The notes beneath the pieces were generated by a model that ran no database searches, was not told the DNA's origin, and saw nothing but the letters and a program-made list of their open reading frames with translations. A program made the position numbers and the translations under genes. DNA of 64,000 nucleotides from Eledone cirrhosa (Eukaryota), in contig OZ024742.1 in assembly GCA_964016885.1 (NCBI GenBank), positions 172,050,001-172,114,000 of the forward strand. The letters are read 5' to 3'. Below are positions 1 through 64,000 of the stretch, one piece after another (position 1 is the stretch's first letter; every line of letters starts with the position of its first letter).

Positions 1-1717
1 CATATATATATATATACATATATATATGTATATACATATATATATATACATATATATATGTATATACATATATATATATACATATATATATATATATGTA
101 TATACATATATATATATACATATATATATACACATACATATATATGTATATACATATATATATATATATACATATATATGTATATACATATATATATAGA
201 TATATATATATATATGTATATACATATATATACAAATACATATATATATACATATATATATATATACATATATATATGTATTAACATATATATATACATA
301 TATATATATGTATATACATATATATATACCTATATATTTATATGTATATACATATATATACATGTATATATATCTTTATACATATATATACATATATATA
401 TATATATATATATATATATATATATATATATATATATATATATACATATATATATATATATATATATATATATACATATTTATACATATATATACATATA
501 TATATGAGAATGTGAGAAAAACCACAGACCCTCCATCTCAACTCACCTTCTGAAAAGCAGAAGAACTGCGAAACCGGTAAAGGAACCAAATAAATATATA
601 TATTTTTTTCAAAAATAAGACTCCAGTTGCATTTTCGGTTTCATCTCTTTTTCTTTATACTTTCACTCGTGTAGGACACAGGGGTTATTTTTAATTTTGT
701 AAAAAAACCTCACTTTCTAATATTTATATATATATATATATATATATATATATATATATATATATATATATATATATATATATATATATATATATATATA
801 TATATATATATACATACATATATATATACATACATATATATATATACACATATATATATATATATATATATACATATATATATATATATATATTATATAC
901 ATATATATATATATATATATATATATATATACATATATATAGTTATATATAAATATATATATATATAAATATATATATATATATACATATATATACATAT
1001 ATATATATATATACATATATATATATACATATATACATATATATATACATATATATAGATATATATAAATATATATATACATATATATATATATATATAT
1101 ATATATTCATATATATATATATATATACATACATACATATATATATATATATATATACATATATACACTTATATATATATATATATATACATATATACAC
1201 ATATATATATATATATATATATATATATATATATATATATACATATATATACATACATATATATATATATATACATATATTCATATATATATATATATAT
1301 ATATATATACATATATACATATATATATACATATATATAGGATATATATAAATATATATATACATATATATATATATATATATATATATACATATATATA
1401 TATATATATACATACATACATATATATATATATATATATATATACATATATACACTTATATATATATATATATACATATATACACATATATATATATATA
1501 TATATACATATATATACATACATATATATATATATACATATATTCATATATATATATATATATATATATATACATATATACATACATATATATATATATA
1601 TAGATATATATATGTATATACATATATATATATATATGTATATTGATATATATATATATACATATATATATATGTATATCTATATATGTATATACATATA
1701 TGTATATATATATATAT
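1..1717. repeat. (TA)n microsatellite tracts with CA/TG interruptions (representative; similar tracts at ~5.0-6.8, 9.2-9.85, 13.0-13.4, 15.0-15.6, 19-22, 46-50.9, 55.1-62.8 kb)
   Basis: Direct dinucleotide periodicity; explains the YIYI ORFs in all frames. Confidence 0.99.
546..583 (+). ncRNA. Minimal type I hammerhead ribozyme motif (variant core) in a short repeat (505-720) also present at ~55895-56040
   Basis: CCTT-CTGAAAA-GCAG aagaa CTGC-GAAA-CCGG-TA-AAGG: stems I and II pair, stem III is palindromic, GUA cleavage triplet; second copy 55932-55969 has core TTGAAAA and a damaged GAAA. Confidence 0.65.
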
Positions 1718-2626
1718 CCTCTTACAGCAGGATCTGGATGCCATATACAGATGGGCGGAAGAAAACAACATGCAGTTTAATGCTGGCAAATTCCAAGCCC
1801 TACAATACAAACCTGCAAACACAAACACAAATATAGCGGAACACAGCTACACAGGACCAGGAGGGACCGATATCCCCGTGTCAAAATCGATACGAGACCT
1901 GGGCATAGACATGAGCGATGATGCATCTTTTTCTTCACACATCATGAAGGTGGCGACAGCATGTAGACGATTCGCTGGCTGGATCTTGAGGACTTTCCTT
2001 ACAAGAGATCGAGACACCATGTTGACACTGTGGAGGACTTTTGTCCTAAGTCGCCTGGACTACTGCTCCCAGCTGTTGTCACCCCATAGTGTCAAACTAA
2101 CCACAGAGCTTGAGGCAATCCAGCGAAGCTACACCAAGAGGATTGCCAAGATGAGGGAGACAAGCTACTGGGAGAGGCTGAAGGAACTGAACCTCTACTC
2201 CTTGGAGCGAAGACGGGAGAGATACGCAGTGAACTACATGTGGAAAATCCTGGAGGGACTAGCACCAAACTTTGGCATTGGGAGCTGGACCAACCGTCGA
2301 ACAGGACGTCACTGTGTGGTGCCAAAGGTCCCGTCTTCCACATCTAGAATAAGGAGCAGGTATTGCAATAGCCTGGGATTCAAGGGCCCTCAACTCTTCA
2401 ACAGGCTGCCGAGGCATCTGCGAGACTTGCATGACGTGGAGGTGGATGTCTTTAAGAAACATCTCGACACCTTGTTATCCAGGATCCCGGATGAGCCGAC
2501 AGCAAGACACGAGGGAAACCTAAGGGCAGCAGCAACAAACTCCCTCCTACACCAGTGGCCAACCTATACAGGCTGGAGATAAAATGTGTAGCAACAAGGG
2601 CGGTGCCCCAGCATGGCCTCAGCCGG
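1718..2626 (+). mobile_element. 5'-truncated CR1/L2-group LINE, 3' part of ORF2 (RT C-terminus) plus partial 3' UTR
   Basis: ORF 1719-2582 ([24 protein letters not shown]...SRLDYCSQ...LYSLERRRERY), closely matching 8250-9148; starts directly after (TA)n. Confidence 0.95.
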
Positions 2627-4611
2627 TGCTAGTTATAATTTTACATTCATAAATTAAGTTTTTATCGAGGCAATGTTTGTTGAGAGGACATTTATTTTTA
2701 ATGCGGCAGTTGCAATTAGAGAGTTGGTCAATAATAATAATAAATTTCGCGCCAGTTCGCGTTACAATAGTTCTTCATATAAGAGGGGGGGTGTCACAGG
2801 TTGTTTTTTCATATATGAGTGTTTGAATTTCTTTTTACTTGAAAAAAGGTGCTCACGAAGGCTTTTTTTTATTGGTTATAAATGAAATTATGGCTGTCAA
2901 GTGAACAAGTTTTCATTAAATTTTCGCGCCCTTATTTGGAAATCCATTCTGTAGCCTTCAAGAGAAATGGGATGGGAGAATTGTTCTGGTTTAGTGAATA
3001 TGGTTAACTCGCTGGGGTGTCAGAATTCAGATTTTCTATTGAATAAAGAAAGTAAAGATATCTATGTTTATTTGTGTGCTTGTGTGTGTGTGTGCGTGTG
3101 TGTGTGTGTGTGTGTGCTGTGTATTTGTGTTTGAATTTCTTTTTACTTAAAAAAGGGTGGCTCACGAAGGCTTTTTTTTAATAAACGTAATTTGATTTAA
3201 TAAACGTAATATATATATATATATATATATACATATATATATATATACATATATATATATACATATATATATATATATATACATATATATATATATATAT
3301 ATATATATATATATATATATATATATATATATATATATATATATATATATACATATGTATATATACATATATATATACATATATATATATATATATATAT
3401 ATATATATATATATATATATATATATATGAAAGAAGGAGGTTATAGTTCACTTGAAGCATTGTGTAATGAGGTATAAACGTTTGTATATGTATAATAAAG
3501 CAGATATGGACATAGAATAAAGAATGCAAAAGATACTGTTGACAATTAGTCTTTTACCTTAGATTCATTTAAATGTCCTTAATATTCGAGATAATATCTC
3601 TTCTTCGGAGGGAAGTAAAGCGGTTAAACCAGTGTTCTAAATAGCTTGCCAAGTCATGCTGACAGGAAATGGTATAGAGTATCTGTTCTATCTCTAATGT
3701 GAAAGAGTTAAGATTAGGTGGATAAAGAGTAGTCCCCCTTTAGAAGGATTTTTTTGTACATGCCTGTTTAAGTGTGTGGGAGAATGCATGAAAGTGTAAG
3801 TATGTGAGTGTGTGAGTGTGAGAAGATATGTCTATACGTAAATTTTGGGGATAGATGTTATCTCGTGTTAGAACTGGTCTCTGTGTGTGTATGTGTGAGA
3901 GACAATAAGTGGAGGTGTAAGCGTGTGTGTGTGTGCGTGCGTATGTGTGTGCGTGTGTGTGTGTGGTGGGGGTGTAAACATGGGGCTAGAAGCTCTATCA
4001 AGTTATAAATTGGGTGTTGAGCTCTAGTCTATTATTTGATAAAAAATATCATCGGCTAGAACAAGCCAAAATTCAGGAATAGAGAAGGATAATTCAGAAA
4101 ATTATCATGGAAAGACGTGTTAAACCTAATAGGGTGCATTGGTACATAAAAACTATAGGGCAAGAGAGCAAGCAAACATTAAAATAGCCACGTTAAAAGT
4201 ACAATATAATCTAATACTCGAAATACAACATAGTAATATAATGCGAGAAATAAGATATAAAAATTATAATATAATATACAATACAATGGAACACATAATA
4301 CAGAAATAAATTTTATATATATATATACACGCATTCACACACATAAATACACACACAAATACACATTTACACATACACATGTTAACACAAATATATAAAT
4401 ATAAGCACTATAATAGAATAATCACCCTGACGGTGTGATTAAACAATACTAAAATCAATGAAAAAAATATTGACATTAAAAAAATATAAATACTTCCCAC
4501 GTACCATGCAAAGTCAACAAAACGGGAATAAATACATAATGTATTCCACAGGGTAAACAATTAATTTATATAGTATATGTATATATATGTATATATATAT
4601 ATATATGTATA

Positions 4612-5000
4612 TGGTGGCTGCTAACTCGTTTTCAAGTACGGCCACTACTTTATATCCATGTAGGAGAACCCCTACCGATGTGCTGAACAAGTGTGACTTT
4701 TTAGTCCAGCCAGCGACTTGAAAACTCTGGTACAAACACTACACCTGTGACAATTATTGACACATAGTGCTGGGCTCATGGTACCATGTGACGACAAGTG
4801 CAGAGAGATCTCCAGATATAAAGCAATGCCTGTGCCGTGAAGCTTTTATAGTGAGCAAAGCCAGTCCCACTCTCTTAACCAAGATGATATTTACCAAAAA
4901 GAAGAACAAGTCAACATCATTGGATACCATCAGGGTTGCAGGTGTTATATCAGAGTTTTCCTTCTCCTAGAATTCTGCCTTGACAAAGGCTGAGGGGTCA
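4612..5000 (-). mobile_element. Possible degenerate RTE-type 5' UTR or repeat fragment
   Basis: Minus strand AGCCTTTGTCAAGGCAGAATTCTAGGAGAAGGAAAACTC resembles a motif recalled from RTE-like 5' UTRs; unverified. Confidence 0.3.
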
Positions 5001-62817: not shown

Positions 62818-63315
62818 GGTACCTCCGTAAAAACACTTATTAGCTAGACATACCCATTTCAAAGACCCCCCTGCATAGATAAGAAACGTATAACTTGTAA
62901 AATAAGCCCCCATATTAACTGTAAAACTAGAAATGTATTGTATAGGATAAGATGTACTGAAGGACAATGTAGAGACAAAAATATAGTGTACATAGGTGAG
63001 ACAGCTCGTAGTGTAGGGGAACGGATAAATGAACACTGGCGAGACCTTCAAGATAATAAAGAATCATCTGTACTCTACCAACATGCTAAAATAGAACATA
63101 AGGGTAAATTAGAGAACATAGAAATAAAAATAGAATCTACACACAAAAAAGACGCATTGTTTAGACAAATCACAGAGGCAATAAACATAAAAGAATTACA
63201 ACCAAAATTAAATAGAAAATATGAGTGGAACAGCAACATCACAACTTACAATTATGGACAAAATGAAAACACACACACACATAGAACAAACGACCAACCG
63301 GTAACATGTAAATAA
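62818..63315 (+). pseudogene. Penelope-like element ORF C-terminus: Cys-rich linker plus GIY-YIG endonuclease (Neptune-like)
   Basis: [89 protein letters not shown]; one in-frame stop. Confidence 0.92.
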
Positions 63316-63655
63316 ACAAATAAATAAACGAATATAAACACACACAGACACCCAGATGTGGCGCATGCGCAGACTGAGCACACATCACACACACAGAAAC
63401 AAAATGGCGTAGGACAGAACAAAGCGGAGGCACAAAGACAACGAAAATAATCCCCAGTCACTGAAGAGGACACAGAATGTGTGACGAAAAATTTGACACT
63501 ATATAAACAACTATCTGGTTGTGGAACCAACCAACCAGAAATGTATAAACTTATAAATTCCTAAATTTATAAATTTATTATAATAAATTGAAGTGAAAGC
63601 AACTGGTGGGTGTGTTTCTTATTGGCAACATGACCCTCCCAAAGTATAACAATAT
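62818..63655 (+). mobile_element. 5'-truncated Penelope-like retroelement with 3' pLTR and HHR at 63457-63497
   Basis: GIY-YIG ORF followed by GTCA-CTGAAGA...GAAA...TGAC; flanked by (TA)n. Confidence 0.9.
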
Positions 63656-64000
63656 AACAATACATATATATATATATATATATATATATATATATATATA
63701 TATATATATATTTATATATATATGTTTATTTATATATATATATATATTCATTAGTTAGGCAAAACAAGACCACATATTTCACAAGGAAGACATTATTAAA
63801 AGATTGTCAACATATTTCAGTTTGATGTAAGGAATGTAGAGAATAATAATAATAATAATAATAATAGTGTCCGTTTCAATTGTTTCGCTACTGCATATGA
63901 TATTTCTGGATCAGATGACTATATATCATAATTGATCTAGTTAAGTTGAAAATAATTAACATATTTAAAAGACAGAGCGGCTCCTCGGAACTTCAAAGGA

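What the first reader, a model, noticed from the sequence alone, without database searches (positions are those of the whole stretch)
505..64000. Most short islands between (TA)n tracts are hammerhead-bearing retroelement ends
Seen: HHR or HHR-derived motifs at ~546, 6955, 10239, 11105, 14916, 17380, 17757, 18103, 20493, 29980, 45512, 50940, 55932, 57752, 58330, 59323, 59639, 61060, 61223, 62376, 63457 and 63873, from about a dozen families, nearly all abutting (TA)n. Stem III usually carries a family-specific palindrome (CCGG, CAATTG, CACGTG, TGATCA, TGCGCA, CGATCG, CAAGGCCTTG). Known: minimal PLE HHRs are proposed to cleave as dimers through palindromic stem III. Inference: a (TA)n-targeting PLE/retrozyme ecosystem in which the palindrome may act as a family-specific dimerisation code.
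Basis: partly seen in the sequence, partly recalled or inferred. Interest (0 to 1): 0.75.

Follow-up and report, generated by a model that had tools for sequence, protein, structure and literature searches.

The report
Hammerhead-tipped Penelope retroelement ends in (TA)n
The window is crowded with end-pieces of Penelope-like jumping genes that sit in TA-repeat tracts and carry hammerhead RNA motifs, which likely cut themselves in pairs; this design is already known, and because unrelated families share the same palindrome it is not a family-specific code.

Summary
The motifs are real: 21 of 22 listed positions are intact or decayed type I hammerheads of repeat families; 10239 is a lone CTGATGA. 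More copies were missed. "Most short islands" is borderline: 20 of 48 carry a hammerhead core, about 27 of 48 are ends of hammerhead-bearing families; genome-wide 149 of 496. The (TA)n link is strong and 3'-polar (322/367 versus 18% background). Parents are Penelope-like elements of the Hydra and Neptune/Nematis types plus tandem retrozymes, with fixed double 3' ends ("tail") and inverted 5' copies. All of this is described (Cervera 2014, Craig 2021, Frangieh 2024). Dimer-type helix III is supported: 18 of 18 six-base families keep their central bases complementary. The family code is not: 21 families use only 8 hexamer palindromes (18 expected by chance), CAATTG alone serves 9, and successful families lack a palindrome. 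New details: roughly 270,000-460,000 intact cores, fixed U4C cores, 2-6 nt TA microhomology at junctions. The scan reached the same verdict before on other DNA of this genome. Cleavage untested.

The parts
503..722 (+). Family A 3' end; minimal HHR, family core U3-A8 (TTGAAAA), helix III CCGG; window copy has a C3-A8 mismatch (core at 550)
3435..3623 (-).
5136..5199 (-). Partial scrambled-order hammerhead (GAAA and CUGAUGA blocks only) cut by (TA)n
6816..7087 (-). 3' end with complete HHR, U4C core CCGATGA at 7072, long stem II, CAATTG
9847..11373 (+). One young Hydra-type PLE 3' end: GIY-YIG C-terminus, microsatellite-containing UTR (the TA tract near 10450 is inside the element), intact HHR core at 11110, CACGTG
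13405..15025 (+). PLE-type end with partial tandem; intact HHR core at 14920, TGATCA
15980..17419 (+). Hydra-type PLE 3' part (family D); HHR with fixed U4C core CCGAAGA near 17383, CAATTG, 3' stem I lost in this copy
17420..17844 (+). End with intact HHR core at 17760, non-palindromic CATTG
18071..18293 (+). Family B (Neptune/Nematis-type) end; HHR core 18107, non-palindromic GAAC
20318..20593 (+). End with HHR core 20499, TGCGCA, plus inverted piece
20806..21318 (+). Decayed end of CCGCCGG family (HHR homology 21180-21241); missed
22078..22200 (-). Long-helix-III family (monomer-type hairpin), decayed; also at 43550
22240..23000 (.). Hairpin of inverted ends of the U3-A8 long-helix-III family (22257-22355) and a CGATCG-family piece (22890-22993); missed
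29918..30130 (.). Inverted pair of long-helix-III family HHRs (core at about 29986 +, 3' half inverted)
35975..36062 (-). Complete scrambled-order (site, GAAA, CUGAUGA) hammerhead-like motif, core at 36003
38273..38522 (+). Second GAAC family end, decayed; missed
39358..39662 (.). U3-A8 long-helix-III family ends; further copies at 43129-43254 and 44870-45096; missed
45499..45690 (+). CGATCG family with U4C core in an intact copy; decayed here
50880..51060 (.). Older family, hairpin of inverted ends; HHR core near 50954, decayed
55845..56043 (+). Family A end, decayed HHR
57705..57888 (-). TATGTA/TATATA family end, decayed HHR
58180..58831 (-). Family B end with inverted 5' copy; HHR core 58367
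59118..59846 (+). Tandem retrozyme (about 317-bp unit, 2.3 copies), U3-A8 core, CAAGGCCTTG; the only same-strand tandem HHR pair of one element in the window
60974..61577 (.). Near-perfect inverted pair; HHR cores at 61199(-) and 61228(+), 115-nt stem II, CGATCG
62170..62476 (+). TGCGCA family end; intact core 62382
62814..63656 (+). Family B 3' end with GIY-YIG C-terminal coding piece and HHR at 63461
63746..64000 (-). CAATTG/U4C family end (3' half of the HHR inside the window)
19729..19789 (-). Tail-only piece of an HHR family; others at 29519-29738, 29760-29813, 55707-55788

Best explanation
The islands are largely 5'-truncated 3' ends of dozens of Penelope-like retroelement families and their tandem retrozyme derivatives, which sit with a fixed 3' end against (TA)n and carry a type I hammerhead whose short self-complementary helix III likely forms only when two copies pair. 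Shown: family identity, fixed double 3' ends, inverted 5' copies, RT plus GIY-YIG parents (Hydra-type and Neptune/Nematis-type), 3'-polar TA adjacency, central complementarity of helix III. Inferred: the element's GIY-YIG endonuclease nicks (TA)n; reverse transcription starts at one of two internal sites, probably helped by a 2-6 nt A/T match to the nicked TA end, and usually stops early, leaving the HHR-bearing end; repeated insertion into the same tracts builds nests like this window. Cleavage would occur between two same-family HHRs of one tandem transcript (or with protein help); most solo genomic copies are probably inert. Palindromes are inherited along lineages and drift through G-U steps while staying self-complementary; cross-family incompatibility is likely a by-product of divergence in helix III and stem I together, not a selected code.
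For: HHR excess 189 versus 6-10 in 1.6 Mb. 3' TA adjacency 322/367 versus 1358/7643 random positions; 3'-only 153 versus 5'-only 12; SINE control 9/163 and 1/163 versus family A 32/36. Two fixed 3' ends in families A, B, D, F, like the 'tail' in PMC11167929. Parent ORFs: RT plus CX4CxxC linker plus GIY-YIG (L242); DKT and CxCX5C (L241, L244, L257-260), the Hydra signature in PMC8557442 section 11. 18 of 18 multi-locus six-base families have positions 2/5 and 3/4 complementary; monomer hairpin dG +2.4 to +6.0 versus dimer duplex -2 to -11 kcal/mol for the self-complementary 4-6-nt inners. Sharing: 21 families use 8 hexamers, expected 18.0. Of 98 ordered pairs with identical inner sequence only 26 can form stem I of 3 bp or more.
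Against: No cleavage or RNA data. Helix III mismatch alone does exclude 1542 of 1722 ordered hetero pairs, so the palindromes give partial orthogonality. Family B (GAAC) is abundant yet its dimer helix III is predicted unstable (+1.4 kcal/mol), and three families have stable monomer hairpins of 14-17 nt, so the dimer model is not universal. Clade labels rest on motifs, not a tree; Pfam GIY-YIG hits are below the curated cut-off. PMC11167929 reports initiation at a site not homologous to the target, which differs from the microhomology seen here; my ten values were read by eye. CR1-like and RTE-like LINE ends also abut (TA)n in this window, so TA adjacency is not unique to PLEs.
Confidence: 0.82

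Rival explanations
1. The helix III palindrome is a selected family-specific dimerisation code that keeps co-resident families from cross-activating or cross-cleaving.
For: 31 different inner sequences among 48 clusters; 1542 of 1722 ordered hetero pairs fail at helix III, and only 44 pass both helix III and stem I; some related families differ by compensatory changes (CAATTG/CACGTG, TATGTA/TGCGCA).
Against: Under-dispersion instead of over-dispersion: 8 distinct hexamers among 21 families (P<1e-5 uniform, 0.001 composition-biased; multi-locus only 7 of 12, P=5e-4). CAATTG is used by 9 families, only 6 of whose 36 pairs are detectably alike. Within-family polymorphism (CAAGGCCTTG 20, CAAGACTTG 9; TATGTA 15, TATATA 12). 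Non-palindromic families thrive. Dimers in tandem transcripts form in cis and need no code.
Confidence: 0.07
2. The hammerheads are mostly passengers: cleavage is dispensable, and the motifs persist because they lie next to the RT start site that every truncated copy must include.
For: HHR mutants did not affect insertion in vitro (PMC11167929); fixed core variants such as U4C in whole families and a young successful family with an unstable helix III; 330 of 444 sampled copies have no same-strand partner within 4.5 kb (10-kb edges inflate this).
Against: Cores, stems and central complementarity are kept across dozens of diverged families, which needs selection on the fold in active masters. 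This rival is compatible with the best explanation for dead copies.
Confidence: 0.25
3. The (TA)n tracts are products of the elements (added or expanded during or after insertion) and not pre-existing targets.
For: Strong 3' polarity; every junction has an A/T seed; one family carries a TA/TG microsatellite inside its UTR; the parents have telomerase-related RTs (literature).
Against: Both ends of short copies lie in TA (181/367 on the 5' side versus 18% background); some family D junctions continue into (TC)n before TA; PMC8557442 lists (TA)n as the insertion preference of Hydra, and links the Neptune linker to microsatellite bias.
Confidence: 0.12
4. The motifs are chance matches in AT-rich, low-complexity DNA.
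For: In the window alone one-mismatch hits are only 9 versus up to 6 in shuffles; one listed position (10239) is not an HHR.
Against: 189 versus 6-10 genome-wide; palindromic hits 85 versus 0 in two shuffles; intact family copies exist for the decayed window motifs.
Confidence: 0.01

Closest known systems
[quoted passage not shown]
   Same: Type I, bulged base before stem II, palindromic helix III, U3-A8 variant, many heterogeneous families per genome, mostly solo truncated copies, proposed dimers.
   Different: Here 6-8-nt palindromes and very long stems II (up to about 115 nt) are common, U4C cores are fixed in several families, and the density is far higher than the 2,000-9,000 per genome reported there.
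Hydra-clade PLEs (Craig et al. 2021, PMC8557442)
   Same: C-terminal GIY-YIG, CxCX5C linker, DKT, HHRs, (TA)n insertion.
   Different: That paper found few families outside cnidarians; here at least two are abundant, one with 39 or more identical copies over 449 nt.
Neptune/Nematis PLEs
   Same: RT plus CX4CxxC linker plus GIY-YIG with CCHH-like residues (family B), microsatellite bias.
   Different: Neptune versus Nematis not resolved; its HHR helix III is non-palindromic (GAAC).
Non-LTR retrozymes (Cervera and de la Pena 2020, PMC7229834; Li et al. 2026, 10.64898/2026.07.22.740005)
   Same: Non-coding tandem units of about 310-317 bp, one type I HHR each, PLE-like ends.
   Different: Here they end at (TA)n and show inverted 5' copies like their PLE partners; circular RNA not tested.
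Poseidon element PAc (Frangieh et al. 2024, PMC11167929)
   Same: Two fixed 3' ends bounding a tail; AT-rich targets.
   Different: PAc primes at a site reported as non-homologous to the target; these families show 2-6 nt alternating A/T microhomology.

Membership tests
Type I hammerhead ribozyme | Core CUGANGA / GAAA / UH (or covariant U3-A8) in type I order with stems I-III | tested here: met
   Intact in family copies and in 9 window copies; U4C variant in several families.
Type I hammerhead ribozyme | Self-cleavage | not testable with these tools
   No assay possible.
Dimer-type (palindromic helix III) PLE hammerhead | Helix III self-complementary through its centre and unstable as a monomer hairpin | tested here: met
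   18 of 18 six-base and 5 of 6 four-base multi-locus families; energies. Not met by GAAC and the long-hairpin families.
EN+ Penelope-like element | Single ORF with RT and C-terminal GIY-YIG | tested here: met
   L242 (421 aa), L258/L260 (556/590 aa), L241/L244 pieces; Pfam GIY-YIG weak, below cut-off. Shown for 3 families only.
EN+ Penelope-like element | pLTR with HHR, partial tandems, inverted 5' copies, optional tail | tested here: met
Hydra clade | CxCX5C linker and DKT | tested here: met
   CxCX5C in family D and the 9847 family; DKT seen in family D (L241) only.
Hydra clade | RWK motif and phylogenetic placement | not tested
   No tree built; no RWK found in the N-terminal fragments held.
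Neptune clade | CX2-5CxxC linker and CCHH motif | tested here: met
   CX4CxxC; C, C, H, H read by eye in the L242 ORF. Shared with Nematis.
Neptune clade | RT phylogeny separating Neptune from Nematis | not tested
   No reference set was available.
Non-LTR retrozyme | Non-coding tandem units of 150-450 bp, each with a type I HHR | tested here: met
   59118-59846 family arrays; 310-bp CGCG arrays in L079 and L082.
Non-LTR retrozyme | Expression as linear and circular RNA | not testable with these tools
   No RNA run was available to lay.
Family-specific palindrome code (proposed) | Each family has its own palindrome, more distinct than chance | tested here: not met

The most novel reading that the evidence does not exclude
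This genome holds one of the densest and most diverse hammerhead populations known (roughly 270,000-460,000 intact cores in 3 Gb, 46 or more families), and helix III plus stem I act together as a two-key lock, kept by selection, so that co-resident ribozymes do not cleave each other's RNA in trans; only 44 of 1722 ordered cross-family pairs are predicted to fit both keys.
Probability: 0.1. Interest if true: 0.65.

Novelty: new member of a known kind. Interest (0 to 1): 0.3.

Why it matters
The architecture is known, so the main claim adds little. The value is as a test bed: dozens of co-resident natural variants (palindromes of 2-10 nt with G-U intermediates, U3-A8 and U4C cores, monomer-type hairpins, a very young Hydra-type family with a long open frame) make the long-standing dimer hypothesis and the role of PLE hammerheads directly testable. 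The estimated copy number exceeds the 126,247 motifs reported for the axolotl (PMC7229834) in a much smaller genome, though with a different descriptor. The junction microhomology bears on how PLEs prime at microsatellites.

Tried and rejected
Rfam scan of the window: the 150 rows shown of 711 were all microRNA-family matches to TA repeats below gathering score; no hammerhead family was among those shown. PDB sequence search with the Hydra-type ORF: nothing significant. First descriptor missed bulged and long stems II and was replaced. Cluster G22 blast counts were low-complexity false hits and were filtered. Clusters 35 and 38 were dropped as spurious before the counts; cluster 24 (not TA-linked, 1 of 28) was kept but left out of the library. 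Singletons were kept only if palindromic, which biases them, so palindrome fractions use multi-locus clusters. I first took the pairs at C5:84.82 Mb for a full-length element; they are a local duplication. CR1-like LINE 3' ends with a stem-loop and GAAAC were considered as HHR relics and rejected: no CUGANGA block. 10239 was rejected as an HHR. Five of 12 anchors gave no usable junction.
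Full report
Setting. The window is G000:C3:172050001-172114000 of a 3.0-Gb animal genome. I recall its SINE and LINE tails as octopus-like; that is memory and was not tested. TA-like tracts cover 27% of the window versus 5.2% of a 1.6-Mb sample, so it is an unusually TA-rich nest. Masking gives 60 islands, 48 of them up to 1 kb. For background I fetched 160 stretches of 10 kb at positions fixed without regard to content, mostly on the large contigs, and loci for eight families.

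1. Are the motifs real? On the window alone a strict type I descriptor finds 2 hits versus 0.11 in 100 island shuffles; with one mismatch 9 versus 3.4; the half motif GAAA+palindrome+UH 13 versus 1-9. The weak excess is because most copies are decayed. In 800 kb the strict descriptor gives 64 versus 2-8, and in 1.6 Mb a slightly looser one gives 189 versus 6-10, in 73 of 160 stretches. The bootstrap range is 142-248, or about 270,000-460,000 intact cores genome-wide before removing about 4% false hits; two tandem arrays add 30 of the 189. Counting decayed homologues gives 444 in 1.6 Mb. 546/55932 and 59323/59639 belong to families with the U3-A8 core. 6955 and 17380 have a fixed U4C core, and an intact copy of the 45512 family has it too. 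10239 fails: it is a lone CTGATGA in the UTR of the element whose HHR is at 11110, and the two islands are one element. Missed copies lie near 3600, 21200, 22100, 22300, 22900, 38290, 39440, 43220, 43570 and 45000.

2. 'Most islands'. 20 of 48 short islands hold a core, 24 a core or family tail after dropping one false hit, about 27 with three added by hand. In the sample it is 149 and 195 of 496, a lower bound because the library is incomplete. So the share is about half here and a third or more genome-wide. The other islands are CR1-like and RTE-like LINE ends, SINEs and simple repeats.

3. (TA)n link. (TA)6 lies within 300 nt 3' of 322 of 367 sampled HHRs, versus 1358 of 7643 random positions; on the 5' side 181; 3'-only 153 versus 5'-only 12. 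A SINE control has TA within 40 nt at 9 and 1 of 163 hit ends, versus 32 of 36 for family A. Families have fixed 3' ends, often two (63 nt apart in A, about 55 nt in B), the 'tail' that PMC11167929 maps to two RT start sites. At the proximal end the template matches alternating TA for 4, 4, 2, 3, 5, 3, 4, 6, 4 and 4 nt in ten families, read by eye; random junctions average 1.07 nt, P=7e-5 for the sum. This suggests microhomology-assisted priming (inference).

4. Parents. Family B continues into RT (YVDD), a CX4CxxC linker and GIY-YIG: Neptune/Nematis type. Family D and the 9847 family encode RT (YRDD), CxCX5C and GIY-YIG, with DKT in D: Hydra type as defined in PMC8557442 section 11. The 9847 family has at least 39 other copies identical over 449 nt and an open frame of at least 590 aa, so it is very young. 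The 59118 family is a non-coding tandem repeat of about 317 bp with inverted 5' copies, a retrozyme; a 310-bp CGCG array is another. For the remaining families PLE origin is inferred from end structure.

5. Palindromes. Clustering gave 48 families, 38 with two or more loci; two were dropped as spurious. Among the 38, helix III is a perfect palindrome in 21, G-U palindrome in 6, odd-length in 2, imperfect in 9 (two of these spurious). In all 18 six-base multi-locus families (10 distinct sequences) positions 2/5 and 3/4 are complementary, pairs that cannot form in a hairpin; 5 of 6 four-base families likewise. The scan slightly favours paired parses and families are not independent, but this supports the dimer model of PMC4209133. 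Series such as CAATTG, CGATTG, CGATCG and TATATA, TATGTA, TGCGCA look like drift through G-U steps (inference). Against a code: 24 of 46 families share their inner sequence; 21 hexamer-palindrome families use 8 of 64 (expected 18.0, P<1e-5; biased null 13.5, P=0.001; multi-locus only 7 of 12, P=5e-4); CAATTG serves 9 families with detectable likeness in only 6 of 36 pairs. Sharing occurs inside the window too. GAAC, CATTG and three long monomer-type hairpins are not palindromes. In a swapped dimer the core of one copy uses the cleavage strand of the other, so stem I is also intermolecular (follows from the fold). Of 1722 ordered hetero pairs, 1367 fail both helices, 175 fail only helix III, 136 fail only stem I and 44 pass both; of 98 pairs with identical inner sequence 26 pass stem I. 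Orthogonality is thus real but shared between two helices and best read as a by-product of divergence. Only 114 of 444 copies have a same-strand partner within 4.5 kb, so most copies are probably inert.

6. Literature seen. PMC4209133: parts 1-2 of 4. PMC8557442: passages, section 11 and a supplement search. PMC11167929: parts 1-2 of 4. PMC7229834: passages and section 15. 10.64898/2026.07.22.740005: parts 1-2 of 5; its supplements were not seen and may list invertebrate counts. PMC3088659: passages, which note palindromic stem III across repeat-type HHRs and a natural U4C variant. PMC10085705: abstract and section 13. Searches showed no paper proposing or testing a family code, nor an HHR census of such a genome; the library lacks most subscription journals.

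7. Earlier notes of this scan reached the same verdict on other pieces of this genome and supplied the label 'type SGC' for the scrambled motif, whose order I had seen and then tested (1 window hit, 4 in 1.6 Mb of which 3 are of this kind, 0 in three shuffles).

Verdict. A real, abundant, known kind of system: new members of PLE and retrozyme hammerhead families in (TA)n. The dimer reading is supported in silico; the family-code idea is not. Interest 0.3.

Noticed in passing
window 35975-36062 (-) and 5136-5199 (-); L142, L168: Hammerhead blocks in scrambled order (site, GAAA, CUGAUGA) with compensatory changes in stems I and III between copies; 745-bp tandem in L142; fits type SGC of PMC10085705. 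Stem II not resolved by me.
   Followed up: partly
window 9847-11373; L257-L260: Very young Hydra-type PLE: at least 39 copies identical over 449 nt, open RT plus GIY-YIG frame, and a variable TA/TG microsatellite inside its 3' UTR.
   Followed up: partly
window 15838-15885 (-); L058, L115, L149, L176: HHR-like motif with good stems, GAAA and a TATA palindrome but a conserved aberrant first core block (CAGTTGA) in 4 other loci; unexplained, perhaps a dead or variant core.
   Followed up: partly
window 17383, 7072; several loci: U4C core fixed in whole families, mostly with CAATTG or CGATYG helix III.
   Followed up: partly
window 1718-2626, 7200-9186, 11495-13044, 19356-19615, 18357-18960: CR1-like and RTE-like LINE 3' ends also abut (TA)n; the CR1-like ends finish in a stem-loop followed by GAAAC.
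   Followed up: partly
window 4610-5002; L033, L147, L202: Repeat that sits in (TACA)n arrays elsewhere, likely a non-LTR end with a tetranucleotide tail.
   Followed up: partly
window 29980, 50950, 61215: In three families the centre of the inverted hairpin lies just 5' of the CUGANGA block, as if copying often stops or turns back right after the ribozyme.
   Followed up: no
L214-L227 (family D): Several 3' junctions run into (TC)n before (TA)n, suggesting insertion at (TC)n-(TA)n borders.
   Followed up: no
window about 61350-64000 versus L002: Local duplication about 6.1 kb downstream, 99% identical over the stretch searched.
   Followed up: no
window 26492-28940 and 43850-44430: Minisatellites built of TG/CA-rich units (about 147 bp and about 40 bp).
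   Followed up: no
L069, L078 (cluster 24): HHR-like family with a 150-nt stem II that is not TA-associated (1 of 28); status unclear.
   Followed up: no
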